In this document: in pieces, positions 15,414 through 52,687 of the stretch
Numbering within the stretch: position 1 is the first letter of the stretch
Layout: each line of letters starts with the position of its first letter
Position numbers and translations under genes: made by a program
Assembly: GCA_047602655.1 (NCBI GenBank)
Contig: JASGGT010000001.1
Location: 5,453 to 69,452, forward strand
Origin: Desulfovibrio sp.
GTDB taxonomy: Bacteria > Desulfobacterota > Desulfovibrionia > Desulfovibrionales > Desulfovibrionaceae
Direction: 5' to 3'
Length of the DNA stretch: 64,000 nt
Notes under the pieces: generated by a model
Told to the model about the DNA's origin: nothing
The model's input: the letters and a program-made list of their open reading frames with translations, nothing else
The model's database searches: none

Positions 15414-15419
15414 TTTTTT

Positions 15420-16376: not shown

Positions 16377-16377
16377 A

Positions 16378-19985: not shown

Positions 19986-20082
19986 GTGCAAACTCCTGAA
20001 AAATTGGGTTCAATCGTTATAAAAATTACGCTGTTCTGCGGTGTGTGCCGTGCGATGCGGCCCGCGCAGATCAACGACCGTA

Positions 20083-21165
20083 TCAGGCCAGTTTTTTACG
20101 CGCGGTGCCTTCGGTGTAGAACGGCGCTTCAACCCGCGCGGCGGGCAGTTCCGTTCTGGCGGCGCGAACAACAAAATTCTCGGCTCCGGCATGCGCGGCC
20201 TTGACCCAGGCAAAGGCGATCACATAGCCCAGCGAGGGCGCAAACGAACCACTGGTCACATGGCCCACTTCCGTGCCGTCAGTAAGGGCTACCACATCAC
20301 CGTGGCGGGCGGCGCGGCGACCATCAATGCGCAGGGGCACCAGCACTTCGGCGATCTTCTGCGCGCCTTCGCGGCCCACATAGTCGGCGGTGCTGGTCAT
20401 CATGCGGCCCATACCGGCCTCGGCGGGGCTGTGATTCTCGTCCAGATCGTGCCCATACAGGGGCAGGCCAGCCTCAAGACGCAGGGTATCGCGCGCGCCA
20501 AGGCCTATGGGCTTGACGCGTTCGTCAGCCAGCAGGGCGCTCCAGAAAGCCTCGGTCACGGAGCTCTCAATGTACAGTTCGTAGCCCAGCTCGCCAGTAT
20601 AGCCGGTGCGGCTCACCAGCAGGGGCGTGCCCTGCCAGGTGGTTTCACGGAAACCAAAGTAGCCGAGGTCGTGGAAATTCTGGCCCAGCAGCTTTTCGAG
20701 CACGTCCAGGGATTCCGGTCCCTGAAGGTCGATCTTGCCTGTTTCTGCGGAAATGTCGGTCATTTTGACGCTCTGGGGCAGACGGGCGCGCAGCACAGCG
20801 AAGTCGTTGGCGGCGCAGGCGGCGTTGACCACGGCCATGAAGGAATCAGGGCCGAAACGGTAGATGATTCCATCGTCCAGCACGCCGCCCTTTTCGTTGA
20901 GCAAAAAACCATAGCGGCACTTGCCGGGGGCAAGGGTCTGAAGGTTGTGGCTCACGGCCTTGCTCAAGGCTTCGTCCGCGCCGGGGCCTTCAATAAGAAA
21001 CTCGCCCATGTGGCAGATGTCAAAAAGGCCTGCATGCTGGCGGGTGTGCTGATGCTCTACAATAATACCCTCATACTGGATGGGCATGAGCCACCCGGCG
21101 AAGGGGGCCATTTTTGCGCCATGCGCCTCGTGCCAGGCAGTGAGGGGGGTACGCAGATCCGACAT
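20083..21165 (-). CDS. gcvT: aminomethyltransferase (glycine cleavage T protein)
   Basis: 360 aa, TPLTAWHEAHGAKMAPFAGWLMPIQY, typical GcvT. AAGGAG RBS. Confidence 0.9.
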   Translation of the reverse strand: MSDLRTPLTAWHEAHGAKMAPFAGWLMPIQYEGIIVEHQHTRQHAGLFDICHMGEFLIEGPGADEALSKAVSHNLQTLAPGKCRYGFLLNEKGGVLDDGIIYRFGPDSFMAVVNAACAANDFAVLRARLPQSVKMTDISAETGKIDLQGPESLDVLEKLLGQNFHDLGYFGFRETTWQGTPLLVSRTGYTGELGYELYIESSVTEAFWSALLADERVKPIGLGARDTLRLEAGLPLYGHDLDENHSPAEAGMGRMMTSTADYVGREGAQKIAEVLVPLRIDGRRAARHGDVVALTDGTEVGHVTSGSFAPSLGYVIAFAWVKAAHAGAENFVVRAARTELPAARVEAPFYTEGTARKKLA

Positions 21166-21414: not shown

Positions 21415-22248
21415 TTATTCCTGCGCTGGCAGGCCGAAAAACCGGCGGGCATTGTCGCCGCAGGTGCGCCAGAGGTCTTCGGGATTTTCTCCCCGCGCTT
21501 CGGCCATGGCTCGCACGGTAAACACCGTATAGCACGGCTCGTTGCGCTTGCCCCGCCACGGCAGGGGCGCAAGATAGGGGGCGTCGGTTTCCAGCAGCAG
21601 ACGGTCGGCGGGGATAAGGGCCACGGCCTCGCGCAGGGCCACATTGGCCTTGTAGGTGACGGGGCCGGGAATGGATATGTGCCAGCCGTTGCGCAGAATG
21701 CGCCGCGCAATTTCCGGCCCCTGACCAAAGCAGTGCCACAAGAGCGGATACCCGGCAAAGCCCTCGGCCTCCAGCGTCATGAGCGTTTCTTCCTCTGCCT
21801 CGCGGCAGTGAATGACCACCGGACGTTCCACGGCACGGGCCAGAGCAAGCTGATCTCGCAGGGCCTGATACTGGATTTCCCTCGGGCAGTCAGGCCAGTA
21901 AAAATCCAGCCCTATTTCGCCCACGGCCTTGAGCCGGGTGTCAGCGACAAAAGCGGCGCGCATGGCGGCAAGGCGCTCCTGCGTGCACTTCTGCCCATCG
22001 CAGGGGTGTATGCCCAGAAGAAAAAAGACTTCGGGGTGGGCGTCAAAATAAGCACGGCGGGAGTGATACTCTTCCGGCCCCAGAAAAACATTGCCCACCT
22101 GAGCAATACCTGACGCGCGAGCGCGTTCAAGCACGGCATCGCGATCCGCATCAAATTCCTGACCATCAAGGTGCGCGTGGCTGTCCACCCCGGCAAGGGG
22201 CAGGGCCAGAGTCAGGGGATCAATGCGAACGGCTGATTTTTTCGACAT
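21415..22248 (-). CDS. TatD-family metal-dependent hydrolase
   Basis: GVDSHAHLD...EIGLDFYW...VIHCREA...ETDAPYL are TatD metal-ligand motifs. Confidence 0.85.
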   Translation of the reverse strand: MSKKSAVRIDPLTLALPLAGVDSHAHLDGQEFDADRDAVLERARASGIAQVGNVFLGPEEYHSRRAYFDAHPEVFFLLGIHPCDGQKCTQERLAAMRAAFVADTRLKAVGEIGLDFYWPDCPREIQYQALRDQLALARAVERPVVIHCREAEEETLMTLEAEGFAGYPLLWHCFGQGPEIARRILRNGWHISIPGPVTYKANVALREAVALIPADRLLLETDAPYLAPLPWRGKRNEPCYTVFTVRAMAEARGENPEDLWRTCGDNARRFFGLPAQE

Positions 22249-22377
22249 GGTTTACCTCGCGGCCGATACATAGCAACGGGCGCAGGCGAAAGGCAAGGGG
22301 CCAGTCACCGGCAGCAGACATCCCTGCGGGCAGCCGCCATTGCAAAGCCCGGACAATGGGGCTATGCTTTGGAGGAT

Positions 22378-22405
22378 TTGCCAGTTTTTACTGGTTTCCT
22401 ATACT
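22378..22405 (+). promoter_or_regulatory. possible sigma70-type promoter
   Basis: TTGCCA (22378-22383), 16 nt, TATACT (22400-22405). It is very close to the ATG at 22421, so the leader would be very short. Confidence 0.3.
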
Positions 22406-22420
22406 TTTTTTGGGGGAATC

Positions 22421-23377
22421 ATGCATCTCCGCAAACGCATTCTTGTCACCGGCGGTTCCGGCTTTTTGGGTTCGCACCTGTGCGAACGCCTGCTCAACGA
22501 AGGGCACGAAGTGCTCTGCGTGGACAATTTCTTTTCCAGCGCCCGCGCCAACGTGGAAGCGCTCATGGATAACCGCAGGTTTGAGCTTATCCGCCACGAC
22601 GTGACCTTTCCCCTCTATGTAGAGGTGGATGAAATTTACAATCTGGCCTGCCCGGCCTCGCCCATCCATTATCAGCACGACCCGGTGCAGACCATCAAGA
22701 CCTGCGTTCACGGCGCGATCAACATGCTGGGCCTGGCCAAAAGGCTTGGCGCGCGCATTTATCAGGCATCCACCAGTGAAGTGTACGGCGACCCCGAGAT
22801 ACACCCGCAGCAGGAAAGCTACTGGGGGCATGTGAACCCCAACGGCATCCGCTCCTGCTACGATGAAGGCAAGCGCTGCGCCGAAGCCCTGTTCTTTGCC
22901 TACTGGCGTCAGGGCGGCCTGCCCATCAAGGTGGGACGCATCTTCAATACCTACGGGCCCAAGATGCACCCCAACGATGGCCGCGTGGTCTCCAACTTCA
23001 TCATCCAGGCGCTCAAGGGTGAACCCATCACCATTTACGGCGATGGCTCCCAGACCCGCTCCTTCTGCTATGTGGACGACCTTGTGGAATGCATGATCCG
23101 CTTCATGGCCTCGGCCGATGATTTTGTGGGCCCCATGAACATGGGCAACCCCGGCGAATTCACCATCCGCGAACTGGCCGAAAAGGTCGTGGAAATGACC
23201 GGCAGCAAGTCCGTGATTTCTTACGAACCCCTGCCCGGCGACGACCCCAAGCAGCGCAAGCCCGACATCACCCTGGCCCGCGAAAAGCTTGGCTGGGAAC
23301 CCAAGGTAGCCCTTGCGGAAGGCCTGGTAAAAACCATCGCCTACTTTGAAAAGCAGCTGAAAGACGGCCTGGCGTAG
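22421..23377 (+). CDS. UDP-glucuronate decarboxylase (UXS-type NAD-dependent SDR)
   Basis: [14 protein letters not shown] Rossmann motif, YDEGKR catalytic motif, strong UXS-like sequence throughout. Confidence 0.85.
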
Positions 23378-23391
23378 GTATTCCGGCAGTC

Positions 23392-25452
23392 ATGTTCCTT
23401 TTTATCACGGCCATCGGCATATTGGCGGCAACAGCCGTGCTGTGCGCACTTTTGGCCGTGCGCCCGCCCTCAAAGGCAACCGGACGCGCGGCCAATGCGG
23501 CTGGCGTTATCGGGGCCTTTGCGGGCTGTTTTGCTGGTTTGTGCGCCCTTGCTTCCGGCCCATGGGCCGGGCAGGAGAGCCTGCGTCTGCCTCTGGCCTT
23601 GCCCGTGGGTTCCTGCGCCCTGGGCATGGATGCCCTGAGCCGCCTGTTTTTGCTGCCAGTGTTTGGTCTGGGTTTTGTTTGCGCCGCCTCGGGTGGCATT
23701 GCCCTGCGGCATGAAGAACCGGAGCGCCACAATCTTGCGGCGCACTGGTTCTTTTTTCATATGCTGCTGATCGGCCTTGCCCTGGTGATGACCGCGCGCG
23801 ATGCCGTGCTGTTCATGCTGGCCTGGGAAATCATGTCGCTGGCGCCCTTCTTTCTTATTGATTTCAATGACGGCGACAGCAAGGTACGCGACGCCTCATG
23901 GGTATACCTTGTGGCTGCGCATCTGGGCGCTGTGGCCCTGATGGCCTTCTTTACCCTGCTGTGGCAGGTCACGGGCAACACTTCGCTGGATGCCCTCCAG
24001 GGCGGAGCTGTGCTCGCGAGGGTACTCGAACAGGCGCAGGGCTATTATGGCCCCGGCCTGCTCACGGTGCTGTTTGTGCTGGCTCTTGTCGGTTTTGGAG
24101 CCAAAGCGGGGCTTGCGCCCCTGCACGTATGGCTGCCCGAGGCGCACCCTGCCGCGCCAAGCCATGTTTCGGCCCTGCTCTCCGGGGCCATGATCAATGC
24201 TGGATTTTACGGCATGATCCGTAGCGTGGGCATGCTGGCACCTGCGGGCGCGGCACCTGAATGGTGGGGTTGGGCGCTGCTGTTGCTGGGGCTCGCCACC
24301 GGCCTCATGGGAATTTTGAAAGCCACGGCCCAAAGCAACCTCAAAAGGTTGCTCGCCTATTCCAGCGTGGAAAACATGGGCCTGATGGTCATGGGTCTGG
24401 GTGCCGGGCTTATCGGCCAGAGCTGCGGCAATGCGTGGATTGCTGTACTGGGCTTTTCCGGCGCGCTGCTGCACATGCTCAACCACTCTGCATTCAAGGG
24501 GCTGCTGTTCCTGTGCGCAGGCGAAGTGCTGCACGCCACAGGGACCATACGCATGCAGCATCTGGGCGGTCTGCAAAAACGTCTGCCTCTGCTTGGCGCG
24601 GCCTTTGCCATAGGTGCAGCGGCCATTGCCTGCCTGCCGCCTTTTAACGGATTTGCGGGCGAGCTTGTGCTGGGCCTTTCCCTGCTGGACGGCCCCGCGC
24701 TTTTTGGCGTGGAGCGTCAGGTGGGGCTGCTGCTCGCCCTGGCGGGCCTTGCCTGCATCAGCGGCCTTGCGGCGGCCCTGTACGCCAAAGCCTACGGCAT
24801 CGCCTTTCTGGGTGAGCCGCGCTCCGGCTTTGCCGCCAACGTGCGCCCACTTTCGTGGCGCACGCTCTGGCCCCTGGCCCTGCCCGCCGCCGCATGCCTG
24901 GCGGGCGGTCTGGCCGCGCCTCGGGTTTTCGAGCTGGCCGCCGGGGCCGCCCAAAGCGCCCTGCCCTTGCCGCAGGCGCTTCAGCAGGCCGGTCTGGCCG
25001 GCCTGACCCAGGCGCATGCGAGCCTTGCCGCAGTGGCAAAAATCGGCGGCGCTGGCCTTGGGCTGGCCTTGCTGATCCTTTTTGTTCGCCGCTGCCTGCT
25101 TAAAAAACGCGCTGTGGAATCCATGCCCACCTGGGGCTGCGGCTTTCAGGGCGGATCTGCCCGCATTCAATACACGGACGCGGCCTTCTCAGAACCCACG
25201 GCAAAGATATTTGCTCCTGTCATGGGCCTCAAGACACGCCTGCAACTGGATGATGGGCTGTTTCCCAAGGGCGGACAACTGAGCGTCACCGCGCCCGACC
25301 GCCTGCGCAGCGGCCTGTTCACCCCCCTGTTTGCAGCGGTGGAAAGCCTGTGCAATGCCTGCAAGGTTATTCAGCACGGCAAAATCCACCTGTATATTTT
25401 GTACATTCTCGCCACGCTGGTGGCGCTGCTCGTGTGGGGGCTGCACTCATGA
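23392..25452 (+). CDS. HyfB/NuoL-like antiporter-type membrane subunit (EhrA-like)
   Basis: 686 aa, with proton-conducting-membrane-transporter motifs (FGAKAGLAPLHVWLPEAHPAAPSHVSALLSGAMIN; LAYSSVENMG). Confidence 0.85.
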   Translation: MFLFITAIGILAATAVLCALLAVRPPSKATGRAANAAGVIGAFAGCFAGLCALASGPWAGQESLRLPLALPVGSCALGMDALSRLFLLPVFGLGFVCAASGGIALRHEEPERHNLAAHWFFFHMLLIGLALVMTARDAVLFMLAWEIMSLAPFFLIDFNDGDSKVRDASWVYLVAAHLGAVALMAFFTLLWQVTGNTSLDALQGGAVLARVLEQAQGYYGPGLLTVLFVLALVGFGAKAGLAPLHVWLPEAHPAAPSHVSALLSGAMINAGFYGMIRSVGMLAPAGAAPEWWGWALLLLGLATGLMGILKATAQSNLKRLLAYSSVENMGLMVMGLGAGLIGQSCGNAWIAVLGFSGALLHMLNHSAFKGLLFLCAGEVLHATGTIRMQHLGGLQKRLPLLGAAFAIGAAAIACLPPFNGFAGELVLGLSLLDGPALFGVERQVGLLLALAGLACISGLAAALYAKAYGIAFLGEPRSGFAANVRPLSWRTLWPLALPAAACLAGGLAAPRVFELAAGAAQSALPLPQALQQAGLAGLTQAHASLAAVAKIGGAGLGLALLILFVRRCLLKKRAVESMPTWGCGFQGGSARIQYTDAAFSEPTAKIFAPVMGLKTRLQLDDGLFPKGGQLSVTAPDRLRSGLFTPLFAAVESLCNACKVIQHGKIHLYILYILATLVALLVWGLHS

Positions 25453-26396
25453 AAGCCGAGCTTGCGGTCTATCTTACGCAGTTTGCCCTGTCCCTGATTC
25501 TGGCCCCCCTGCTGCCCGGCATCATCAACCGGGTCAAGGCCAAATTTGCCGGACGCCACGGCAAGCCAGTGCTGCAAACCTACTATGATATCGCCAAACT
25601 GCTGCGCAAGGGCGAGGTGATCAGCCGCACATCCACATGGATATTTGCCGCCGCCCCCTCCATATCCCTGGCAGGCGCAATCTGCGCTCTGGCCCTGCTG
25701 CCCCTCGGCGGTGCGGTTTCGCCATTGGCGTTTGCGGGCGACTTTGTGCTGGCCGCCTATCTGCTGGGCATGGGGCGCTTTGCCGTCATGCTTGGCGCAC
25801 TGGATACTGGCTCGGCATTTGAAGGCATGGGCGCAAGCCGCGAGGCCACATTCTCCGCCCTTGCGGAACCCGTATTTTTTCTGGCGCTCATGGTGCTCAC
25901 AAGTCTGTGCCTCGGCCTTGGGCACGGCACAGATACTGCCTTCAGCCTCTCCACCATGTTTGGCGGGCAGACCGCCGGGGCATGGCTGACAGGCAAGGGC
26001 GAGCTGCTGCTTCTGCCCGTGATCTTTTTTGTGCTGCTGCTGGTGGAAAACTGCCGCATCCCGGTGGACGACCCCAATACGCACCTTGAACTGACCATGA
26101 TCCATGAAGTCATGGTGCTTGACCATTCCGGCCCCAATCTGGCCCTGATACTTTACGGCGCCGCCCTCAAACTGTGGTTTTTCGCCGCGCTGATCGCGGG
26201 CCTGATCACCCCTGCGCTGCCCCTGTGGGAGCAACTGGGCATACGCCTTGGCATTGTGCTGCTGCTGGCCGTGGTTGTGGGCATTGTGGAATCCATCATG
26301 GCCCGCCTGCGCATGGAGCGCGTACCCTACCTGCTCGGCGCAGCAGCGGGCATGGGCATGCTCACGCTTATTCTGACCCAGGCGAGGTTGCCATGA
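25449..26396 (+). CDS. HyfC/HycD/NuoH-like membrane subunit (EhrB-like)
   Basis: 315 aa. The ATG overlaps the upstream stop (ATGA). INRVKAKFAGRHGKPVLQTYYDIAKLLRKGE is typical of the HycD/NuoH family. Confidence 0.85.
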   Translation: MKAELAVYLTQFALSLILAPLLPGIINRVKAKFAGRHGKPVLQTYYDIAKLLRKGEVISRTSTWIFAAAPSISLAGAICALALLPLGGAVSPLAFAGDFVLAAYLLGMGRFAVMLGALDTGSAFEGMGASREATFSALAEPVFFLALMVLTSLCLGLGHGTDTAFSLSTMFGGQTAGAWLTGKGELLLLPVIFFVLLLVENCRIPVDDPNTHLELTMIHEVMVLDHSGPNLALILYGAALKLWFFAALIAGLITPALPLWEQLGIRLGIVLLLAVVVGIVESIMARLRMERVPYLLGAAAGMGMLTLILTQARLP

Positions 26397-27016
26397 CCAC
26401 GCTTTTGCAGTCCTGCCTTTTCCTTCTGGTATTGAGCAATTTTCTGCTGCTCGGAACGCGCCGCGTTGCGGGCATGACGCGGTTGACCGCCTTTCAGGGC
26501 GTATTGCTGGCAGCCCTGCTGCTGAGCCTTGACCATGCCCTGCTGGCCGGTGCCGTATTGCTGATCAAGGGCGCACTATTGCCCGGTCTTTTGTGGCGCA
26601 CCCAAAAACGGCTGCCCGCCGACGCCCTGATCTGCCCCGCCCGCCGCGTGGGCTTTGGCGTACTTGCAGGCATGGCCGGTCTGGTATTTTCCATCTGGCT
26701 GGACGGCAAGCTGGTCATGCCGCTGGGTCTTTACCCGCCCTTGCTGCTGCCCACCGGGCTGGCAACGCTGTTTTGCGGATTTATCCTCATTGTAGGGCGC
26801 ATCAAGGCCATCACCCAGGTCATCGGCTATCTGGTGGCGGAAAACGGCATCTTTCTGCTGGGCGTACCGCTCATGACAGGCGGCACGGTGTGGTTTGAAC
26901 TGGCCCTCCTGCTGGACGTTTTTGTGGCCGTGTTTGTTATGGGCATAGCCATCAACCATATCAGCGATTCCTTCGCCTCCATTGACGTGGCGCGGTTCCG
27001 CAGCCTCAGGGATTAG
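26393..27016 (+). CDS. HyfE/NuoK-like small membrane subunit (EhrC-like)
   Basis: 207 aa with about 6 TM helices. ATGA overlap with the upstream gene. The track ORF start at 26174 lies inside the preceding gene. Confidence 0.75.
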   Translation: MTTLLQSCLFLLVLSNFLLLGTRRVAGMTRLTAFQGVLLAALLLSLDHALLAGAVLLIKGALLPGLLWRTQKRLPADALICPARRVGFGVLAGMAGLVFSIWLDGKLVMPLGLYPPLLLPTGLATLFCGFILIVGRIKAITQVIGYLVAENGIFLLGVPLMTGGTVWFELALLLDVFVAVFVMGIAINHISDSFASIDVARFRSLRD

Positions 27017-27025
27017 GACGAGCGC

Positions 27026-28522
27026 ATGCTGACAGCACTTCTTTTCATACCCCTGTGTTCAGGCTGCATCATGCTGCTCTGGGGCCGCGCCGTCGTCTGC
27101 CGCCTCGGCCTGCCGCTCACGGCACTGGCGCACACGACCCTTGCCGCCGCAATTGCCGTCAGGGTCGCGCGCGGAGAAGCCCCCTCGGAGCTTGGCGGCC
27201 TGCTGGCCCCGGACGCTCTGGGCGTGCTGTTTCTGATGCTGGCCAGCCTGCTGTTTCTTGCCGCATCGTTCTATGCCGTGCATTACCTGCGGGAAGAAGA
27301 ACGCATCGGCGAGCACACCAATATTCTGGATCACGGGCGCTTCACCAATGCGCCGGAGCGCCGCTTCACGGCCTGCCTATGCTTTTTTCTCGGGGCCATG
27401 ACACTTGTGACCATCACGCCGCACATGGGCGCGCAGTGGGTGGGCATTGAGGCTACCACGCTTTCCAGCGCCCAGCTCATTTATTTTCACCGTCACAAGA
27501 GCTCACTGGAAGCCACCTGGAAGTACCTGATCATATGCTCCGTGGGCATTGCCCTGGCCCTTCTGGGCAACATACTGCTTTCCGTGTCGTTCCACGGTGC
27601 GGAAGGGGCCAATGGAGCAGCTGACGGCATGGATCAGGTGGGCTGGTTTGTGCGCAACGCGGCACTTGCCGAACCCACGTGGCTCAAGGCGGCCTTTGTT
27701 TTTCTGCTGGTGGGCTACGGCACCAAGATGGGCCTTGCCCCTCTGCACAACTGGCTGCCCGATGCGCACAGTCAGGCCCCTTCGCTGGTTTCGGCCCTGC
27801 TTTCGGGCGCGCTGCTCAACTGCGCCATGCTGGGCATGCTGCGCGGGCACCAGATCATGCTGGCTGCGGGGCTTGGCGGGCTTTCAGGCGGCATGATCAT
27901 GTTTTTCGGTATTCTTTCGCTCATGACAGCCGCCATCTTTATTGTGGGGCAAGGCCACTACAAGCGCATGCTGGCATATTCCAGCGTTGAACACATGGGC
28001 ATTCTGGCTCTGGGCATTGGCGTGGGCGGCGTGGCTGTGCCCGGCGCAATGCTGCATGCGGTCTGCCATTCGCTCACCAAGTGCATGCTCTTTCTGCTTT
28101 CGGGCAACATTCTTGCCCGCTATCACACCTATTCCAGCTACGACGTGCACGGCATGCGCTGGACCATGCCCGCCACCGCGGCCCTGTGGACAGCCGGATT
28201 TCTGGCTGTGGCCGGATCGCCGCCCTTTGGGCTTTTTGTCAGTGAACTACTCATCTTCAAAGGGATGCTGGCAGCAGACCTGCCCTGGCTTTCCGCCGGA
28301 TATCTGGTGCTTCTGGCCATAATATTTGTGGGGCTTTCCGTGTCGGTGCTGCGCATGGTGCAGGGCAACCGCCCTGTGGATCTGCCGCCTGCAAGCTCCG
28401 AGCCTGTGCTGAGCGTCCTGCCGCCTCTGGTGCTGGGGCTGGCCGTGCTGACTCTGGGCCTGTGGATTCCTGACTGGCTGTGGAATTTTCTTAACCGCGC
28501 CGCTGCGCTCATAGGCGCGTAA
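27026..28522 (+). CDS. HyfF/NuoN/NuoM-like antiporter-type membrane subunit (EhrD-like)
   Basis: 498 aa, GTKMGLAPLHNWLPDAHSQAPSLVSALLSGALLN and LAYSSVEHMG. Confidence 0.85.
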   Translation: MLTALLFIPLCSGCIMLLWGRAVVCRLGLPLTALAHTTLAAAIAVRVARGEAPSELGGLLAPDALGVLFLMLASLLFLAASFYAVHYLREEERIGEHTNILDHGRFTNAPERRFTACLCFFLGAMTLVTITPHMGAQWVGIEATTLSSAQLIYFHRHKSSLEATWKYLIICSVGIALALLGNILLSVSFHGAEGANGAADGMDQVGWFVRNAALAEPTWLKAAFVFLLVGYGTKMGLAPLHNWLPDAHSQAPSLVSALLSGALLNCAMLGMLRGHQIMLAAGLGGLSGGMIMFFGILSLMTAAIFIVGQGHYKRMLAYSSVEHMGILALGIGVGGVAVPGAMLHAVCHSLTKCMLFLLSGNILARYHTYSSYDVHGMRWTMPATAALWTAGFLAVAGSPPFGLFVSELLIFKGMLAADLPWLSAGYLVLLAIIFVGLSVSVLRMVQGNRPVDLPPASSEPVLSVLPPLVLGLAVLTLGLWIPDWLWNFLNRAAALIGA

Positions 28523-28535
28523 GCGCCAAAGGCCG

Positions 28536-30131
28536 ATGCCAGACCCCGCTCCGGGTTCAGCACCGCCAACGGTGAGAGGGCCGATGTTATTCGATTACCG
28601 CGATACCGTGCCGCTGTCGGGCATGCCCCCGGTTTCCGTTGAAGAACTGGGAGATTTTCTGCGCCGCTACATTGCCGAAGGCTGGCGTCTGCTGGCACTG
28701 TTCGGCCTGCCGGAATCTTCGGACGAAAACGCACCTGCGGGGTTGTGCTGCGTGCTGGCTCAGGACAGTTCGCACTATCTTGCCACCATGCGCACCGCTC
28801 CCTTGCAGTCCTATGCTTCCATGACGCCCTCCACGCCTCAGGCCCATCTGTTTGAACGCGAAATATTTGAGCAATGGGGCATCCGGCCCGAAGGGCATCC
28901 CTGGCTCAAACCTGTGCGACGCATCCCGGACGCCGCCGAAGCCAATGCCAGAACTCAGGCCGAAGGCGGCTCGCTTGCCGCAGCGCCCGGACAGGCTGCT
29001 CAGCCTTTTCCCTTCTACAGGGTTGAAGGCGAAGAAATCCATGAAGTTGCCGTTGGCCCAGTGCATGCCGGGGTTATTGAGCCGGGGCATTTCCGCTTTC
29101 AGTGCCACGGCGAAAACGTGCTGAACCTTGAGATTGCTCTGGGCTATCAACATCGTGGGCTTGAGCGCATGCTTGTGCGCGGCCCGCTTGCCCGTTGCCT
29201 GCCCCTGCTGGAATGCGCCGCTGGCGATACAACCATTGGGCACGCCACGGCCCATTGCGTAGTGGTCGAACGCCTGTCGGGCTGCGTGGTCGGCCCGCGC
29301 GCTCACCGCCTGCGGCGGGTGGGGCTTGAACTTGAACGCCTTGCCAACCATACGGGCGATCTTGGTGCCATTGCCGGGGATACGGGTTTTCTCCCCACTG
29401 CCTCGTGGAATGGCCGCATACGCGGTGATTTTCTCAATACCACGGCCTGCCTGTGCGGCAACCGTTTTGGCCGGGGGCTGCTGCGTCCCGGCGGCACGGC
29501 CTACGATCTTGACGCGGAAGGCTGCGCAGACATGCTTGCCCGCATCAAGGCGGCAGGACGAGACGTGCGGGGCGCGGTGGATGTGATGCTGCATACCGAG
29601 AGCGTACTTGAGCGCCTCACGGGTACGGGCTACGTCAGCAGGGAAACCGCCCAGAACCTCGGCCTGGTGGGCATGCCCGCACGGGCCTGCGGCCTCAAGG
29701 TCGACGCGCGTTTTCACTATCCCCTTGCCGACCTGCCCATCAGGGACTGCGCGCCGCGTGTTGAAACCACGGGCGACGTTCTGGCCCGCACCCTCGTGCG
29801 CAGCAAGGAGATTGACGATTCCCTGCGCCTGCTCGAGGCGGATCTTTCCACTCTCGCCAACCTGCCACCCCTTGCCGAGCAGCCCGACGCCGAGGCCCTT
29901 GGCAACATGCCGCCCGATACCCTTGCCGTATCGCAGGTTGAGGGCTGGCGCGGCGAAATCTGCCACGTGGCTGTTACCGGACCTGAGGGTAGATTTTTGA
30001 CCTACAAGGCCATCGATCCTTCGTTCCACAACTGGTCCGGCCTTGCCATGGCCCTGCGCGGCAACCAGATTTCCGACTTCCCGCTCTGCAACAAGAGTTT
30101 CAACCTCTCGTACTGCGGACACGATCTGTGA
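28536..30131 (+). CDS. NuoC-NuoD/HycE-like 'large subunit' lacking the [NiFe] cysteine ligands (EhrL-like)
   Basis: GPVHAGVIEPGHFRF and LGYQHRGLE are conserved. The N-terminal ligand motif reads LECAAGDTTIGH and the C-terminus reads KSFNLSYCGHDL. An alternative start is ATG 28584 after GAGAGGG. Confidence 0.85.
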   Translation: MPDPAPGSAPPTVRGPMLFDYRDTVPLSGMPPVSVEELGDFLRRYIAEGWRLLALFGLPESSDENAPAGLCCVLAQDSSHYLATMRTAPLQSYASMTPSTPQAHLFEREIFEQWGIRPEGHPWLKPVRRIPDAAEANARTQAEGGSLAAAPGQAAQPFPFYRVEGEEIHEVAVGPVHAGVIEPGHFRFQCHGENVLNLEIALGYQHRGLERMLVRGPLARCLPLLECAAGDTTIGHATAHCVVVERLSGCVVGPRAHRLRRVGLELERLANHTGDLGAIAGDTGFLPTASWNGRIRGDFLNTTACLCGNRFGRGLLRPGGTAYDLDAEGCADMLARIKAAGRDVRGAVDVMLHTESVLERLTGTGYVSRETAQNLGLVGMPARACGLKVDARFHYPLADLPIRDCAPRVETTGDVLARTLVRSKEIDDSLRLLEADLSTLANLPPLAEQPDAEALGNMPPDTLAVSQVEGWRGEICHVAVTGPEGRFLTYKAIDPSFHNWSGLAMALRGNQISDFPLCNKSFNLSYCGHDL

Positions 30132-30140
30132 GGCTTTGAC

Positions 30141-30896
30141 ATGCTGCGTATTATCAAGGAACGCCTGCACCAGAAATACCGCACGCTGGATTATCCCAAA
30201 CTTCAGCCCTCGCTCTCGCCCAGATATCTGGGCAGGCCAGAGCTTGCGCAGGTTTCCTGCGGATCATGCCGCGCCTGCTACGCGGCCTGCCCTGCTGGAG
30301 CCCTGCTGCCCACCGCTGGCGCGCAAGACGGCACCCCCACGCTGGACATGGGGCGCTGCACCTTTTGCGGCGCATGCCGTGCCGCCTGCCCCAAGGGAGC
30401 CTTTATCTTTACCGGGCAGCACCGCATGGCGTCCTTTACCCGCGAGGGCCTGCTGGTGATCCCCGGTCAGTCTTTCGCAGAGCAGCCCACGCCGTCCCGC
30501 TTTTCCCTGTTCCGCCGCTCGCTCAAGCTGCGGCAGGTCAGCGCCGCAGGCTGCAACGCCTGCGAGGCCGACAGCAATGTGCTCACCACACTGGTGTTTG
30601 ACCTGGGCCGCTTTGGCATTGATTTTGTTGCCTCGCCCCGCCATGCCGACGGCATTGCCGTAACCGGCCCGGTTTCGGAAAACATGCGGCTGGCCCTGCT
30701 TGATACCTTCAAGGCGACTCCCCAGCCGCGCATTGTAATTGCCGTGGGTGCCTGCGCCATTTCCGGCGGGCTGTTCCGCGAGAGTGATCAGTGCAACCGT
30801 GGCGTGAGTGAACTGCTGCCCGTGGACCTGTATATTCCCGGCTGCCCGCCCAACCCGTGGACAATCCTTGACGGTTTGACCTCGCTGCAAAAATGA
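30141..30896 (+). CDS. fused 2x[4Fe-4S] ferredoxin (HycF/NuoI-like) + NuoB/HycG-like small subunit (EhrS-like)
   Basis: CGSCRACYAACP and CTFCGACRAACP, followed by GCNACE...GACAISGG...PGCPPNP. Confidence 0.85.
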   Translation: MLRIIKERLHQKYRTLDYPKLQPSLSPRYLGRPELAQVSCGSCRACYAACPAGALLPTAGAQDGTPTLDMGRCTFCGACRAACPKGAFIFTGQHRMASFTREGLLVIPGQSFAEQPTPSRFSLFRRSLKLRQVSAAGCNACEADSNVLTTLVFDLGRFGIDFVASPRHADGIAVTGPVSENMRLALLDTFKATPQPRIVIAVGACAISGGLFRESDQCNRGVSELLPVDLYIPGCPPNPWTILDGLTSLQK

Positions 30897-31106: not shown

Positions 31107-32027
31107 ATGTTCATGCAAATAAAAGCTTTTTTGACGATTCTTGTACTGCTTTGCTGTTCGCTCATGTTCACCTTGTCTGATGACGCACTTGCAGCTCGTC
31201 TTGGCGGCGGCAGTTCTTTTGGCAGCAAGCCCTTTATGAGCACGCCTGCGCCCCGTCCCCAGACCACGTTCCAGAACAAGCCCAGCGCCGCGCAGCCTCA
31301 GGCGCAGGCGGCTCCAGCCGCGCGTCCTGGTGGCATGTTCGGCGGCATGGGCGGCCTCATGGGCGGCCTGCTTGCCGGTACGCTCATAGGTTCGCTCTTG
31401 GGCGGTCATGGTTTTGCTGGCGGCGGCTTTATGGATATCCTGCTCATCGGACTGATGGTTTTCCTCGGCCTCAAGCTTTTTGCGGCCTTTCGCGGTTCGC
31501 AGAGGCCAGCGCAAGCATCCGCAGGTGCGCAAGGAGCGCAGGCCGAGCAGCCCCAGCCGGGCATGATGCGTAACGACAGTGCGAGTAATGGATGGGATGC
31601 CCTGCGTGGTCAGGGCGGCGCTGGCGAGGCTGAAGCCCCCGGCCCGCAGATTCCCATGCCTCCCGGTTTTGATGCCGATGAATTTCTGCGCGGGGCCAAA
31701 ATGGCCTACACCCGTTTGCAGACTGCCTGGGACAAGCGCGACATGAACGACATCTCGCAGTTCACCACCGAAGCCGTGCAGAAATCGGTGCGCGAACAGA
31801 TGGAAGCCGACCCCAAGCCGAGCACCACAGAAATCCTGCTGGTCAATGCCCAGCTGCTCGGTGTGACCGATGAAGGTCAGGAGCAGTATGCCCAGGTGTT
31901 CTTTGACGTGCTCCTGCGTGAAAGCCCTGACCAGCAGACTCCGTCCTCCGCACGCGAAGTGTGGCACTTCATGCGGCCCGTGACGGGCGGCAACTGGAAG
32001 CTGGACGGCATCCAGCAGGTAGATTAA
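31107..32027 (+). CDS. Tim44-like domain protein with an N-terminal signal/anchor
   Basis: Hydrophobic N-terminus, a G/M-rich segment and a TM helix. C-terminal part FDADEFLRGAKMAYTRLQTAWDKRDMNDI...WKLDGIQQ. A TATAAT box sits at 31016-31021. Confidence 0.7.
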   Translation: MFMQIKAFLTILVLLCCSLMFTLSDDALAARLGGGSSFGSKPFMSTPAPRPQTTFQNKPSAAQPQAQAAPAARPGGMFGGMGGLMGGLLAGTLIGSLLGGHGFAGGGFMDILLIGLMVFLGLKLFAAFRGSQRPAQASAGAQGAQAEQPQPGMMRNDSASNGWDALRGQGGAGEAEAPGPQIPMPPGFDADEFLRGAKMAYTRLQTAWDKRDMNDISQFTTEAVQKSVREQMEADPKPSTTEILLVNAQLLGVTDEGQEQYAQVFFDVLLRESPDQQTPSSAREVWHFMRPVTGGNWKLDGIQQVD

Positions 32028-32054
32028 ACCATATCAGCAATTGTTTGATGTAAC

Positions 32055-32091
32055 ACGGGCTGAAAGCCAAGGCCTTCAGCCCGTTCTTTTT
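32055..32091 (+). terminator. rho-independent terminator
   Basis: ACGGGCTGAA...TTCAGCCCGT followed by TCTTTTT. Confidence 0.75.
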
Positions 32092-32232
32092 CACAAGAGC
32101 AAATCAACCTTGAGAAGCTGCATTCTCAAGGTTTTTTAAACGCCAACTCTGGCGCTGCGGTGCGGCAACAAGGCATGCGCCTTGAGGCAAAGCCAACTCA
32201 CGCAACCGCAAGAGCAAGGGGTACGTGTGGAG

Positions 32233-32634
32233 ATGGAAATGAAAAACTACGTGGAAAAACACGACAAGCTGGTGCGCTATCTGGATATGACCATTGAAAG
32301 CGCCACGCCGGAATACGCCAAGGTAACCATGCCTATCACCGAAAACCACAAAAACGGCATGGGTATGGCCCACGGCGGGGCCATTTTTGCCCTGGCCGAT
32401 GTGGCCTTTGGCTCTGCCGCCAACGCAGGCAAGGATTACGGCGTGGTAAGCCTGAACACCACCATTGAGTATCTGCGCCCCGGCAAAGTTTCGCCCCTCA
32501 CGGCGGAGGCCTTTGTGGTGCGCAACGGCAAGCATATCCTGAACTATGACGTAAAAATTTACGATGGTTCAGGCGATCTCATTGCCAAATGCGTTGCCGC
32601 CGGTTTTCAGACCGACGTGCTGCTGCCGGATTAA
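32233..32634 (+). CDS. PaaI-family hotdog-fold thioesterase
   Basis: MGMAHGGAIFALADVAFGSAAN and the typical length. The start is uncertain between 32233 and 32239. Confidence 0.75.
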   Translation: MEMKNYVEKHDKLVRYLDMTIESATPEYAKVTMPITENHKNGMGMAHGGAIFALADVAFGSAANAGKDYGVVSLNTTIEYLRPGKVSPLTAEAFVVRNGKHILNYDVKIYDGSGDLIAKCVAAGFQTDVLLPD

Positions 32635-34246: not shown

Positions 34247-34470
34247 GGCGAACTCCTATGGCGAACCGCTGCCGCCCAGGCAGTTTCATAAAACCGCCCC
34301 AGGGCAATTAACGCATGGCCCAGCCGCCTTGCGGCGGGCAAGACCAGCCAACGCCAGTTCTATGGCAGGGTTTGGGGGTAAACCCCGGCAAGAGCGTTTC
34401 GTGCAGAAACCCCCTTGCCACAGGCCGGATGCGCTCCATCCGGCCCTCCCGGCCAAAGTTGCACCAGCAC

Positions 34471-34944: not shown

Positions 34945-34983
34945 GGAATACTCCTTGAAGGCCCGGCAACATGCCGGCGCCGG

Positions 34984-52628: not shown

Positions 52629-52687
52629 GAGAATGCCGCCAGAGTTTTGCCCGCCGGTCACACGCGGGCCGCAAAAAAGGAATGCCC

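What the first reader, a model, noticed from the sequence alone, without database searches (positions are those of the whole stretch)
23392..30896. Six-gene Hyf/complex-I-like membrane module of the Ehr type, with unknown substrate
The gene order is as follows:
- HyfB/NuoL-like (686 aa)
- HyfC/NuoH-like (315 aa)
- HyfE/NuoK-like (207 aa)
- HyfF/NuoN-like (498 aa)
- NuoC-NuoD/HycE-like (531 aa)
- a HycF-HycG fusion (251 aa)

The genes are translationally coupled, with ATGA overlaps at 25449 and 26393 and gaps of 9-13 nt elsewhere. No formate dehydrogenase, HycI-type protease, HyfA/HyfR or electron-donor gene is attached. The 'large subunit' has none of the Ni-Fe cysteines (see the next finding). 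This matches the class named Ehr (energy-converting hydrogenase related) in comparative-genomic work on complex I and group-4 hydrogenase evolution. To my knowledge no substrate, partner or physiological role has been demonstrated for that class. It is the strongest candidate in this window for an uncharacterised energy-coupling system.
Basis: partly seen in the sequence, partly recalled or inferred. Interest (0 to 1): 0.78.

Follow-up and report, generated by a model that had tools for sequence, protein, structure and literature searches.

The report
Hydrogenase-like membrane complex without nickel site
This Desulfovibrio gene cluster encodes a six-protein membrane complex built like an energy-converting hydrogenase but without the nickel-iron site; it belongs to the widespread, already named "Ehr" family, whose substrate is still unknown.

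Summary
Six co-oriented, translationally coupled genes (23392-30896) encode HyfB-, HyfC/NuoH-, HyfE- and HyfF-like membrane subunits, a NuoC-NuoD/HycE-like large subunit, and a HycF::HycG fused iron-sulfur subunit.

The large subunit has A, T, S and G at the four NiFe cysteine positions. It ends where mature HycE ends.

The same six-gene order recurs in more than 60 loci from at least 10 phyla. No donor module is conserved next to it. The three [4Fe-4S] cysteine sets and the ion-channel residues of both antiporter-like subunits are conserved.

All three sequence signatures of quinone-reducing relatives are absent: the NuoD Tyr, the NuoD His and the NuoB tandem Cys.

The cluster fits the Ehr family. 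Papers up to 2025 still call the function of that family unknown.

One point needs correcting. A sister clade, Azorhizobium hyqRBCEFGI, has published genetic H2-related phenotypes. It shares the signature motifs IEPGHFRF, G-D-T/S-T/S and a C-terminal DFPLxNKSF..Y.G.DL.

Best reading: a ferredoxin-fed, ion-translocating oxidoreductase that is not a NiFe hydrogenase, with an unresolved acceptor.

This is a new member of a known orphan kind, of moderate interest.

The parts
22378..22405 (+). Sigma-70-like promoter match (TTGCCA-16-TATACT) upstream of the epimerase gene. It is the only promoter-like site upstream of the cluster on this strand.
   Evidence: This is a consensus match only (4 found against 2.9 expected in the region), so it is weak evidence.
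22421..23377 (+). NAD-dependent sugar-nucleotide epimerase/dehydratase gene. It is context, probably co-transcribed, and not a subunit of the complex.
   Evidence: PF16363 and PF01370 hits. The probable start is the ATG at 22421, and the gene ends 14 nt before the next gene. It sits next to the cluster only in the close Desulfovibrio loci L001-L012. NCBIfam gives only sub-cutoff dehydratase hits.
23392..25452 (+). EhrB: HyfB/HycC/NuoL-like antiporter-like subunit, 686 aa.
   Evidence: PF00361 4.9e-51. HycC 7z0s_C 1.9e-53. TM5 Glu146, TM7 Lys238, TM11 Lys369 and TM12 Glu424 are invariant in 50 homologues, and TM11 His365 is in 49 of 50. The TM8 position is Asn here; the family has Lys in 29, Asn in 20 and Ser in 1.
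25449..26396 (+). EhrC: HyfC/HycD/NuoH-like subunit, 315 aa. Its start overlaps the EhrB stop (ATGA).
   Evidence: PF00146 1.7e-29. The family has near-invariant DTGSAFEGMGASRE and RIPVDDPNTHLELTMIHEVMVLDHSG segments. Overlap shown.
26393..27016 (+). EhrE: HyfE-like small membrane subunit, 207 aa. It also has an ATGA overlap with the preceding gene.
   Evidence: NCBIfam HyfE 6e-11, below cutoff. The family profile matches Azospirillum HyfE at 1.5e-28 and Rhizobium HyqE at 2.5e-37, but NuoK and NuoJ only at E of about 1. No PDB sequence match.
27026..28522 (+). EhrF: HyfF/NuoM/N-like antiporter-like subunit, 498 aa.
   Evidence: PF00361 2.5e-45. It aligns without net gaps to E. coli NuoM 227-416. 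Conservation in 61 homologues: Glu142 58, Lys234 61, Lys352 61, Glu407 52. The TM8 Lys is replaced by Asn in 56 of 61.
28584..30131 (+). EhrL: NuoC-NuoD/HycE-like large subunit without NiFe ligands. It is 515 aa from the ATG at 28584; the longest ORF starts at 28536 and gives 531 aa.
   Evidence: PF00329 + PF00346. HycE 7z0s_E 6e-43. AF2 model pLDDT 82.8; Foldseek top hit HycE with TM 0.77, then fused NuoCD. Ligand positions are A213, T216, S509 and G512, and there is no C-terminal extension. Invariant IEPGHFRF, G214-D215 and DFPLCNKSFNLSYCGHDL-COOH.
30141..30896 (+). EhrS: fusion of a HycF/NuoI-like 2x[4Fe-4S] domain with a HycG/NuoB-like proximal-cluster domain, 251 aa.
   Evidence: PF12838 and PF01058. 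MbhJ 3e-28, HycG 1e-27, HycF 4e-11. The 12 cluster cysteines are kept in 39 to 46 of 46 homologues; among the four proximal-cluster ligands C138, C141 and C205 are in 46 of 46 and C235 in 45 of 46. The proximal motif is hydrogenase-type C-N-A-C-E, not the NuoB tandem CC.

Best explanation
The six genes encode an Ehr-type complex. It is a compact relative of the Hyf/Ech/Mbh hydrogenases and of complex I that has lost the NiFe centre but kept its electron wire and its ion-translocating membrane arm.

**Proposed mechanism**
1. (Inferred) A low-potential soluble carrier docks on the HycF-like N-terminal domain of EhrS. In Desulfovibrio this is most probably reduced ferredoxin from pyruvate:ferredoxin oxidoreductase.
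2. (Cluster ligands shown; electron path inferred by homology) Electrons pass through two [4Fe-4S] clusters to the hydrogenase-type proximal [4Fe-4S] cluster in the NuoB-like domain.
3. (Pocket residues shown conserved; their role inferred) The electrons are handed to an acceptor in a remodelled polar pocket of EhrL at the EhrL/EhrS/EhrC interface. The pocket is formed by the beta1-beta2 loop (IEPGHFRF), the G-D-T-T helix start and the C-terminal DFPLCNKSFNLSYCGHDL.
4. (Channel residues shown conserved; pumping inferred) Charge and protonation changes at the pocket are relayed through EhrC and EhrE to the two antiporter-like subunits EhrF and EhrB, which move H+ or Na+ across the membrane. The reaction is probably reversible.

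**The acceptor** cannot be read from the sequence. My rough split:
- menaquinone bound in a non-complex-I manner: about 0.3;
- another ubiquitous small oxidant: about 0.35;
- protons at a non-canonical site: about 0.1.

It is not a conventional [NiFe] hydrogenase.
For: **Composition and coupling**
- Domain composition and translational coupling.
- NiFe ligand positions are A, T, S and G, and the protein ends at the HycE cleavage position. Genuine Hyf proteins keep RxCGxC and DPCxxC, carry a 32-aa extension, and have hycI and hyp genes next to them.

**Conservation of the working parts**
- Twelve Fe-S cysteines are conserved across 46 homologues.
- The HycF-like and HycG-like halves are recognisable against solved FHL and MBH subunits.
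- TM5 Glu, TM7 Lys, TM11 His/Lys and TM12 Glu are conserved in both antiporter-like subunits.
- The NuoH-like loop motifs are near-invariant.

**A self-contained unit**
- The six-gene order is kept in more than 60 loci from Desulfovibrionaceae to Planctomycetota, Acidobacteriota, Omnitrophota, Verrucomicrobiota and Nitrospirota, at 50% or more large-subunit identity.
- Flanks are otherwise unrelated: 174 Pfam families in 131 flanking ORFs, none in more than 3. This implies ubiquitous substrates and no dedicated donor enzyme.

**Structure model**
- In the monomer AF2 model, the most conserved segments (154-169 and 500-515) are exactly the low-confidence ones. That is expected for segments that order only at a subunit interface or around a ligand.

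**Literature**
- Ehr lacks NiFe ligands and its function is unknown (PMC12342949, PMC10284858).
- The M. tuberculosis Ehr exists without hyp genes (PMC6728331).
Against: - No experiment on this clade exists.
- No ferredoxin gene or other donor is linked, so the donor is inferred only from the HycF-like domain.
- The three sequence signatures shared by known quinone or phenazine reducers are all absent. E. coli NuoCD Tyr273 aligns with Gly214, His228 aligns with Ile165, and the NuoB tandem Cys-Cys is replaced by CxxC. This weakens the menaquinone option.
- The TM8 lysine of the proton path is Asn in EhrF (56 of 61) and in this organism's EhrB, so pumping stoichiometry or ion specificity may differ.
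- In vivo H2 phenotypes are published for the sister clade Hyq (PMC2650096, PMC3357923). If taken at face value, they argue that the superfamily can handle H2.
- hypD and hypE are present in this window, so the 'no maturation genes' argument does not apply to this organism.
Confidence: 0.55

Rival explanations
1. It is a ferredoxin:menaquinone oxidoreductase, a minimal six-subunit complex-I analogue. It feeds ferredoxin electrons into the menaquinone pool (Qmo/Dsr route) while pumping ions. In reverse, it would use the ion gradient to make reduced ferredoxin from menaquinol.
For: - The architecture is the Q and P modules of complex I.
- Two antiporter-like modules plus a NuoH-like channel suit a large driving force. 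Ferredoxin to menaquinone is about 375 mV; that figure is from established redox potentials, not computed here.
- The Hyq authors infer quinone coupling (PMC3357923).
- Nuo complexes without NuoEFG in Desulfovibrio are thought to use ferredoxin (PMC4287179).
- The reverse mode would explain the nif-regulon membership of Hyq (PMC2650096) and the occurrence in Nitrospirota. That aerobic autotrophs such as Nitrospira need reduced ferredoxin is my own knowledge, not tested here.
Against: - The NuoD Tyr and His quinone ligands and the NuoB tandem Cys are all missing, and the pocket is polar and hydrogenase-like.
- No NuoA, NuoJ or NuoK homologues are detectable.
- Ehr complexes are reported in lineages where no quinone biosynthesis was found (PMC6349859). 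It was not verified that those belong to this clade.
Confidence: 0.3
2. It is a genuine but non-canonical hydrogenase. As claimed for Hyq, it would evolve or oxidise H2 at a site not built from the four classical cysteines.
For: - Hyq deletion changes in vivo H2 uptake and evolution in A. caulinodans (PMC2650096, PMC3357923).
- Hyq shares the IEPGHFRF, G-D-S/T-T and DFPLCNKSF..SY.G.DL motifs with this protein.
- The hydrogenase proton-relay Glu (E166) and the L1 His (H220) are retained, and the proximal cluster is hydrogenase-type.
- Protons are the only acceptor available to every host.
Against: - All four NiFe ligands are absent.
- M. tuberculosis has an Ehr but no hyp genes (PMC6728331).
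- Nitrospira Ehr is not induced by H2 (PMC12342949).
- The Hyq data are whole-cell and could be indirect, for example through electron supply to nitrogenase. That reinterpretation is my inference.
- The extra cysteines are not conserved across the superfamily: C502 is Thr or Ile in the Rhodococcus and Paraburkholderia proteins.
Confidence: 0.1
3. It reduces a sulfur-based or disulfide substrate, such as polysulfide, persulfide or a thiol-disulfide. It would do so next to the proximal cluster using the clade-specific cysteines C502 and C511, by analogy with the Pyrococcus MBS sulfane reductase.
For: - C502 and C511 are invariant or near-invariant in this clade: 64 of 64 and 62 of 64, and invariant in 55 further sequences.
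- They sit in the segment that replaces DPCxxC.
- The host is a sulfur-metabolising gut bacterium.
- MBS is a precedent for a NiFe-less relative (6u8y_L matched). The MBS chemistry is from my own knowledge.
Against: - The MBS large subunit is a weaker match (5e-15) than HycE, MbhL or Nqo4.
- MBS has 13 subunits with an Mrp module.
- The cysteines are missing in other superfamily members.
- Hosts include nitrifiers and aerobic soil bacteria.
- No sulfur genes recur in the flanks.
Confidence: 0.1
4. It is no longer a redox enzyme. It would be a cation/proton antiporter or ion-homeostasis device in which the peripheral arm is only structural or regulatory.
For: - The antiporter-like subunits resemble Mrp subunits.
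- In 29 of 80 related loci the cassette is preceded by a regulator with a PtsN-like EIIA domain. That PtsN proteins are linked to K+ homeostasis in other bacteria is my own knowledge.
Against: - All 12 Fe-S cysteines and the pocket motifs are under strong purifying selection across phyla.
- A fused ferredoxin-like input domain has no role in a pure antiporter.
Confidence: 0.05

Closest known systems
Ehr (energy-converting / Ech-hydrogenase-related) complexes, named in Geobacter sulfurreducens (GSU0739-45) and reported in Nitrospira, ammonia-oxidising archaea, Margulisbacteria and others
   Same: - A subunit set of NuoL-like, NuoH-like, HyfE-like, second antiporter-like, large and small subunits.
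- A large subunit without NiFe cysteines.
- No assigned function (PMC7894505, PMC3569383, PMC12342949).
- Nitrospirota loci carry the same cassette at 51-55% identity.
   Different: - Nothing that excludes membership was found.
- The Geobacter sequence itself could not be fetched for a direct comparison.
- Some proteins filed under Ehr, such as D. ruminis EhrL, keep the four cysteines (PMC3569383), so the label is heterogeneous.
Hyq 'endo-hydrogenase' of Azorhizobium caulinodans (hyqRBCEFGI) and its Rhizobium/Paraburkholderia orthologues
   Same: - Same B-C-E-F-large-small order with a regulator gene in front.
- The large subunit lacks both CxxC motifs.
- It shares IEPGHFRF, G-D-S/T-T and the C-terminal DFPLCNKSF..SY.G.DL, including the Cys equivalent to HyqG Cys-491 (PMC3357923).
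   Different: - Only 32-35% large-subunit identity, and a separate clade.
- The Hyq small subunit is NuoB-only, about 177 aa, without the 2x[4Fe-4S] domain.
- HyqR is an unrelated XRE-type HTH.
- Hyq is NifA/sigma-54 controlled; no such site is present here.
- The second Cys sits 3 residues earlier, and C174 and C291 are absent.
E. coli hydrogenase-4 (Hyf) and formate hydrogenlyase (Hyc; PDB 7z0s)
   Same: - Best solved-structure matches for the large subunit (HycE 6e-43, TM 0.77) and the first membrane subunit (HycC 1.9e-53); HycG is second after MbhJ for the small subunit (1e-27 against 3e-28).
- CxxC-type proximal cluster.
- HyfE and HyfF homologues.
   Different: - No NiFe ligands and no C-terminal extension.
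- No HycI, HycH, hyp or FDH genes attached, and no HyfA, HyfD or HyfR.
- The HycF and HycG homologues are fused.
- About 28% identity.
Respiratory complex I / NDH-1 (NuoB, CD, H, L, M, N)
   Same: - Same fold of the large subunit, with a fused NuoC-NuoD arrangement as in E. coli and Aquifex.
- A NuoH-like subunit and two antiporter-like subunits with the canonical Glu/Lys set.
   Different: - Tyr273, His228 and the NuoB tandem Cys are absent.
- No NuoA, NuoJ or NuoK detectable.
- No NuoEFG.
- Two rather than three antiporter-like subunits.
Mycobacterium tuberculosis Rv0082-Rv0087 ('EHR', DosR/Rv0081-regulated), represented here by a Rhodococcus plasmid cluster
   Same: - Same superfamily motifs: IEPGHFRF, G-D-T-T, DFPLTNKSFNLSYAGNDL-COOH.
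- Six genes.
- Regarded as not a hydrogenase, because hyp genes are missing (PMC6728331).
   Different: - The small subunit comes first and is NuoB-only, about 180 aa.
- No cysteines in the C-terminal motif.
- 35% identity.
Pyrococcus furiosus MBS/MBX (PDB 6u8y)
   Same: A NiFe-less descendant of a group-4 hydrogenase that still conserves energy. This is a precedent for a changed acceptor.
   Different: - A weak match (5e-15).
- It has 13 subunits with an Mrp module, from my own knowledge.
- No shared signature motifs were tested.

Membership tests
Ehr complexes (energy-converting hydrogenase-related) | A co-encoded set of group-4-hydrogenase/complex-I-like subunits: antiporter-like, NuoH-like, large and small. 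| tested here: met
Ehr complexes (energy-converting hydrogenase-related) | The large subunit lacks the cysteines that bind the NiFe centre. | tested here: met
   A213, T216, S509 and G512 stand at the four ligand positions.
Ehr complexes (energy-converting hydrogenase-related) | Sequence relatedness to named members (Geobacter GSU0739-45, Nitrospira Ehr). | tested here: inconclusive
   Nitrospirota and Nitrospiraceae loci L071 and L036 carry the cassette at 51-55% identity. Geobacter was not among the listed hits, and the founding papers are not held.
[NiFe] hydrogenase group 4a (Hyf/Hyc) | The L1 motif RxCGxCxxxH and the L2 motif DPCxxCxx(H/R). | tested here: not met
   The sequence reads ECAAGDTTIGH and NLSYCGHDL. 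E. coli and Azospirillum HyfG keep both motifs in the same alignment.
[NiFe] hydrogenase group 4a (Hyf/Hyc) | A C-terminal extension removed by a HycI-type protease, with hycI, hyp and FDH genes in the locus. | tested here: not met
   There is no extension. No hycI or FDH gene is in the window. hypD and hypE exist but lie 21.6 kb away. The contrast is Azospirillum B510.
Complex I / NDH-1-type quinone reductases | NuoD quinone-headgroup ligands Tyr (E. coli Y273) and His (H228). | tested here: not met
   They align with G214 and I165.
Complex I / NDH-1-type quinone reductases | Tandem Cys-Cys ligation of cluster N2 in NuoB. | tested here: not met
   The motif is G-C-N-A-C-E (CxxC), as in Hyf and Hyq; E. 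coli NuoB has S-C-C.
Complex I / NDH-1-type quinone reductases | NuoA, NuoJ and NuoK small membrane subunits. | tested here: not met
   The only small membrane subunit is HyfE-like. Its profile against NuoA, NuoK and NuoJ gives E of about 1.
Hyq endo-hydrogenase (hyqRBCEFGI) | B-C-E-F-G-I gene order, and a HyqG-type large subunit: no CxxC motifs and a conserved Cys in DFPLCNKS. | tested here: met
   PMC3357923.
Hyq endo-hydrogenase (hyqRBCEFGI) | A small subunit that is a plain NuoB homologue with a single cluster. | tested here: not met
   It is a 251-aa fusion with a 2x[4Fe-4S] domain, against 175-180 aa in Hyq-type clusters.
Hyq endo-hydrogenase (hyqRBCEFGI) | A HyqR regulator and NifA/sigma-54 control. 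| tested here: not met
   No HyqR-like or HTH-EIIA gene is in the window, and no sigma-54-like site lies upstream.
Hyq endo-hydrogenase (hyqRBCEFGI) | In vivo H2 uptake or evolution that depends on the cluster. | not testable with these tools
   This needs genetics and gas measurements.
MBS/MBX sulfane reductase | A 13-subunit complex with an Mrp-type module and close similarity of the large subunit to MbsL. | tested here: not met
   There are six genes only. 6u8y_L matches at 5e-15, weaker than HycE, MbhL and Nqo4.

The most novel reading that the evidence does not exclude
The Ehr/Hyq superfamily has rebuilt the former NiFe pocket into a new, Hyp-independent catalytic site. The site would comprise Glu166, His169, Arg171, Asp215, Thr216, Asn503, Lys504, Ser505 and Tyr510, plus Cys502 and Cys511 in this clade, next to a hydrogenase-type proximal cluster. 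It would turn over a ubiquitous small molecule while driving ion translocation. That molecule could be protons, which would make this a third route to H2 and fit the Azorhizobium Hyq phenotypes.
Probability: 0.1. Interest if true: 0.9.

Novelty: new member of a known kind. Interest (0 to 1): 0.5.

Why it matters
Ehr complexes are among the most widespread members of the complex-I/hydrogenase superfamily that still have no assigned reaction. Here, 470 of the 505 candidate stretches found in the scan of 185,579 species-representative genomes were confirmed as relatives. Papers up to 2025 call the function unknown. These complexes sit at the evolutionary junction between proton-reducing hydrogenases and quinone-reducing complex I.

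A copy in a cultivable Desulfovibrio desulfuricans relative (94% nucleotide identity to strain SFAD67) offers an experimental handle. That Desulfovibrio is genetically tractable is my own knowledge.

This analysis adds four points to the literature found here:
- an explicit signature for the superfamily;
- the split into a clade with a fused ferredoxin-like input domain and a NuoB-only clade (Hyq, mycobacterial type);
- the absence of all three quinone-type signatures;
- a conserved HTH-EIIA regulator in other phyla.

If the acceptor were identified, it would fill a gap in the energy budgets of sulfate reducers, nitrifiers, rhizobia and mycobacteria.

Tried and rejected
**Literature searches that failed**
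- A paper search on 'Ehr' was swamped by electronic-health-record and Ehrlichia papers.
- Marreiros 2013, Coppi 2005 and Pereira 2011 are not held.
- A D. piger transposon-screen search found nothing.

**Sequence retrieval**
- A second protein search from a Smithella member, meant to pull out the Geobacter EhrL by name, listed only unnamed or generic hits.

**Partner genes**
- All-vs-all clustering of 1,077 ORFs from 80 loci, plus a Pfam census of 131 flanking ORFs, gave only the HTH-EIIA regulator and nothing else.
- A first census attempt exceeded the size limit.

**Regulators**
- HyqR against the HTH-EIIA regulator showed no similarity.
- Neither regulator is in the window, and no sigma-54 site was found.

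**EhrE**
- EhrE against solved structures gave no hit.

**Extra Fe-S cluster idea**
- I considered that four clade-invariant cysteines (C174, C291, C502, C511) bind an extra Fe-S cluster, and set the idea aside.
- In the model's secondary structure, C291 lies at the far end of a 20-residue helix that starts near the pocket, and C174 lies several residues down the beta2 strand.
- None of the four is conserved across the whole superfamily.
- Distances could not be measured because coordinates are not returned.

**Not attempted**
- Multimer modelling is not available.
- I did not use the representative-library search. Its fixed E-value bins would not separate Ehr from other group-4 hydrogenases and NuoD.

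Full report
**1. Observation**

The + strand between 23392 and 30896 carries six consecutive ORFs. Profile searches give the following:
- 23392-25452: a 686-aa HyfB/NuoL-type antiporter-like protein.
- 25449-26396: a 315-aa NuoH/HyfC-type protein.
- 26393-27016: a 207-aa protein with only a weak HyfE match.
- 27026-28522: a 498-aa HyfF-type antiporter-like protein.
- 28536-30131: a 531-aa NuoC + NuoD/HycE-type protein.
- 30141-30896: a 251-aa protein. Its first 105 residues are HycF/NuoI-like with two CxxCxxCxxxCP motifs. Its last 130 residues are HycG/NuoB-like.

Every NCBIfam match is far below the curated cutoff, so none of the proteins is an ordinary Hyf, Hyc or Nuo subunit.

- Homologues of the large subunit are about 515 aa and cover 97% of the ORF. 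The start is therefore probably the ATG at 28584, which has a better Shine-Dalgarno-like sequence.
- The 207-aa protein is HyfE-like: its family profile matches a genuine HyfE at 1.5e-28. It shows no detectable similarity to NuoK or NuoJ.
- An epimerase/dehydratase gene ends 14 nt upstream of the first gene. There is no terminator between them, and the only promoter-like site lies in front of the epimerase gene.

**2. The large subunit has no NiFe site**

In the HMMER alignment to E. coli HycE (7z0s_E, 6e-43), the motif RVCGICGFAH aligns with CAAGDTTIGH, and DPCYSCTDR aligns with NLSYCGHDL. In an alignment with E. coli and Azospirillum HyfG, the four ligand positions are A213, T216, S509 and G512. 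The protein stops exactly where mature HycE/HyfG ends, whereas the genuine hydrogenases carry a 32-residue extension.

The Azospirillum hyf locus shows what a real group-4a locus looks like: hyfA-like, D, H, hycH, hycI, focA, fdhD, hypA and hypC. None of these is near the cluster here. hypD and hypE do occur in the window, 21.6 kb downstream and separated by unrelated genes.

**3. Organism and distribution**

The region is 94% identical in nucleotides, and fully syntenic, to Desulfovibrio desulfuricans SFAD67 and to two MAGs.

A scan of one genome per species confirmed 470 relatives among 505 candidate stretches. Of the 80 best loci, those long enough to hold the whole cassette keep the order B-C-E-F-L-S. 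They come from Desulfovibrionaceae, Planctomycetota, Acidobacteriota, Omnitrophota, Verrucomicrobiota, Nitrospirota, Hydrogenedentes, Riflebacteria, Fibrobacteria, Bipolaricaulota and others. The large subunit is still 50-55% identical across these phyla.

**4. Neighbourhood**

Clustering all ORFs of the 80 loci gave only one extra recurrent gene. It is a protein of about 236 aa that sits directly upstream on the same strand in 29 loci, all outside the Desulfovibrio clade. It consists of an HTH_17 DNA-binding domain and a PTS EIIA-2 (PtsN-like) domain with the GIAIPH histidine.

A Pfam census of 131 ORFs flanking the cassette in 45 diverse loci found 174 families, none in more than three loci. 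There was no formate dehydrogenase, CODH, NuoEFG, ferredoxin, hyp or quinone-biosynthesis gene among the recurrent ones. The cassette is therefore self-contained and must work with substrates that every host has.

In the window the neighbours are conserved only in close Desulfovibrio relatives:
- the glycine-cleavage genes and tatD on the other strand;
- the epimerase gene;
- a Tim44-like gene;
- a hotdog thioesterase gene.

**5. What is conserved**

- *Electron wire.* In the small subunit, the eight cysteines of the two ferredoxin-type motifs are kept in 39 to 46 of 46 homologues. Of the four proximal-cluster cysteines, C138, C141 and C205 are kept in 46 of 46 and C235 in 45 of 46.
- *Membrane arm.* In both antiporter-like subunits, the TM5 Glu, TM7 Lys, TM11 His/Lys and TM12 Glu of the complex-I/Mrp proton path are invariant or nearly so. 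The central TM8 Lys is replaced by Asn in EhrF (56 of 61). In EhrB it is Asn in 20 of 50 homologues, including this one.
- *NuoH-like subunit.* It has long near-invariant loop motifs.
- *Large subunit.* The most conserved stretches are the beta1-beta2 loop GPVHAGVIEPGHFRFQCHGE, the A-G-D-T-T-x-G-H segment that replaces the L1 motif, and the C-terminal DFPLCNKSFNLSYCGHDL.
- *Structure model.* An AlphaFold2 model built from 55 sequences is confident overall (pLDDT 82.8, pTM 0.85) and is most similar to HycE and to fused NuoCD. Its low-confidence parts are the inter-domain linker, the beta1-beta2 loop (154-169) and the last 16 residues. In the solved relatives these are the elements that form the active site at the interface with the small and NuoH-like subunits.

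**6. Quinone signatures**

Aligned with E. coli NuoCD, the quinone-ligand His228 corresponds to Ile165 and Tyr273 to Gly214. Aligned with E. coli NuoB, the tandem Cys-Cys of cluster N2 is replaced by the CxxC of hydrogenases. The pocket keeps hydrogenase-type residues, namely the Glu of EPGHFR and the His of the L1 motif, and it is polar. These results do not exclude a different quinone-binding mode, but they remove the usual evidence for one.

**7. Relation to known systems**

The literature defines Ehr complexes as relatives of Ech hydrogenases and complex I that mostly lack the NiFe cysteines. They were first seen in Geobacter and are present in many organisms (PMC3569383).

What is reported about their function:
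- The function is stated to be unknown in 2019, 2023 and 2025 (PMC6349859, PMC10284858, PMC10432482, PMC12342949).
- In Geobacter the Ehr proteins are more abundant on formate, but the role was never tested (PMC7894505).
- In Nitrospira the genes do not respond to H2 (PMC12342949).
- In M. tuberculosis the homologous Rv0082-87 cluster exists without hyp genes (PMC6728331).

- It has the same gene order.
- HyqG lacks both CxxC motifs and has three conserved cysteines.
- The operon is NifA-dependent.
- Its deletion slows diazotrophic growth and alters in vivo H2 uptake and evolution.
- The authors infer an H2:ubiquinone oxidoreductase, yet call a NiFe site 'uncertain, if not unlikely' (PMC2650096, PMC3357923).

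I fetched Hyq-type clusters from Rhizobium and Paraburkholderia plasmids, a mycobacterial-type cluster from a Rhodococcus plasmid, and a window-type cluster from a Variovorax plasmid. All share IEPGHFRF, G-D-[TS]-[TS] and DFPLxNKSFxLxYxGxDL-COOH.

They split into two clades:
- *The window's clade, with Variovorax as its outlier.* It has the fused small subunit of about 250 aa and the cysteines C174, C291, C502 and C511.
- *The Hyq/Rhodococcus clade.* It has a NuoB-only small subunit of 175-180 aa. It is 32-35% identical to the window's large subunit and keeps at most the C502-equivalent cysteine.

The regulators also differ: HyqR is an XRE-type HTH unrelated to the HTH-EIIA protein.

**8. Interpretation**

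*Shown:*
- the composition of the cluster;
- the loss of the NiFe ligands;
- the intact Fe-S ligands and ion-path residues;
- the conserved remodelled pocket;
- the absence of quinone signatures;
- the absence of a dedicated partner gene.

*Inferred:* The complex assembles like FHL or MBH. It takes electrons from a soluble low-potential carrier at the HycF-like domain; in Desulfovibrio this is most plausibly ferredoxin. It passes them through three clusters to an acceptor in the pocket, and it couples this to H+ or Na+ translocation.

The acceptor is open. Arguments bearing on each candidate:
- *Menaquinone.* It is attractive energetically and fits the Hyq authors' view, but it lacks every usual signature.
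- *Protons.* They would fit the Hyq phenotypes, but they conflict with the missing ligands, with the hyp-less M. tuberculosis and with the Nitrospira expression data.
- *A sulfur or disulfide substrate.* This would use the clade-specific cysteines, but it does not generalise to the superfamily or to its hosts.

The whole-cell Hyq data could also arise indirectly, if Hyq supplied reductant to nitrogenase. This is my inference and is untested.

**9. Verdict**

It is a further member of a recognised, very common orphan family, in an already sequenced species. It is therefore not a new kind of system.

Its value is as a tractable entry point to an open question. It also gives a sharper description of the family: signature motifs, two clades that differ in the electron-input domain, no quinone signatures, and an EIIA-type regulator in other phyla.

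Noticed in passing
L028:3881-4591, L056:4194-4901 and 27 further loci (not in the window): A gene of about 236 aa encoding an HTH_17 DNA-binding domain fused to a PTS EIIA-2 (PtsN-like) domain with the GIAIPH histidine. It sits directly upstream of the six-gene cassette, on the same strand, in 29 of 80 loci from many phyla. It suggests control by a nitrogen-PTS-type phosphorelay. It is absent from the Desulfovibrio clade and unrelated to HyqR.
   Followed up: partly
L045:4161-20419; L047:12946-14514: An Omnitrophota contig carries two complete tandem copies of the seven-gene unit (regulator plus six genes). Another MAG has a second copy of only the large and small subunit genes after the first cassette.
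   Followed up: no
L082:3914-11198 and 14610-19437 (Variovorax plasmid): One plasmid carries a window-type cluster (249-aa fused small subunit) and, 3.4 kb further on, what looks like a Hyq-type cluster from its annotation (it starts with hyfB; the locus ends before its large and small subunit genes). The two types would thus coexist in one replicon. In both Variovorax and Paraburkholderia, a 'fused MFS/spermidine synthase' gene precedes the cluster that starts with hyfB.
   Followed up: no
window 24196-24198 (EhrB Asn269) and 27818-27820 (EhrF Asn265): The central TM8 lysine of the antiporter-like proton path (NuoM Lys265 position) is Asn in both subunits here. This is family-wide in EhrF (56 of 61). 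In EhrB it holds for 20 of 50 homologues (Lys in 29); which lineages carry Asn was not examined.
   Followed up: partly
window 52499-54783: hypD and hypE ([NiFe] maturation genes) lie 21.6 kb downstream of the cluster, after an aspartate-semialdehyde-dehydrogenase-like gene. They are presumably for the organism's other hydrogenases.
   Followed up: no
window 22340-23377: An NAD-dependent sugar-nucleotide dehydratase/epimerase gene ends 14 nt before the first Ehr gene. It is 90-98% identical in the related Desulfovibrio loci, more conserved than the Ehr subunits. The longest ORF starts at a TTG, but the Rossmann motif and a promoter-like site point to the ATG at 22421.
   Followed up: partly
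window 31107-32634: Downstream there is a Tim44-like-domain gene with its own promoter-like site. It is followed by a hotdog-fold thioesterase gene with a weak, sub-cutoff resemblance to the menaquinone-pathway DHNA-CoA hydrolase MenI (35 bits against a cutoff of 185). Both are linked to the cluster only in close relatives.
   Followed up: no
window 16378-21165 (- strand): Upstream, a glycine-cleavage gene set (gcvPB, gcvPA, gcvT) lies on the opposite strand, with room for a gcvH gene between gcvPA and gcvT that was not scanned. It is followed by tatD (21415-22248, also - strand).
   Followed up: no
window 34315-35493 and 46949-48499: Two sizeable ORFs (392 aa and 516 aa) have no Pfam hit; the first was also scanned against NCBIfam without a hit. 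The second overlaps a 711-aa antisense ORF, so the true coding strand is unclear.
   Followed up: no
window 28584-30131 (EhrL residues 154-169 and 500-515): In the AlphaFold2 monomer model, the two most conserved motifs of the protein are the least confident regions (pLDDT below 50), while the rest of the fold is above 90.
   Followed up: partly
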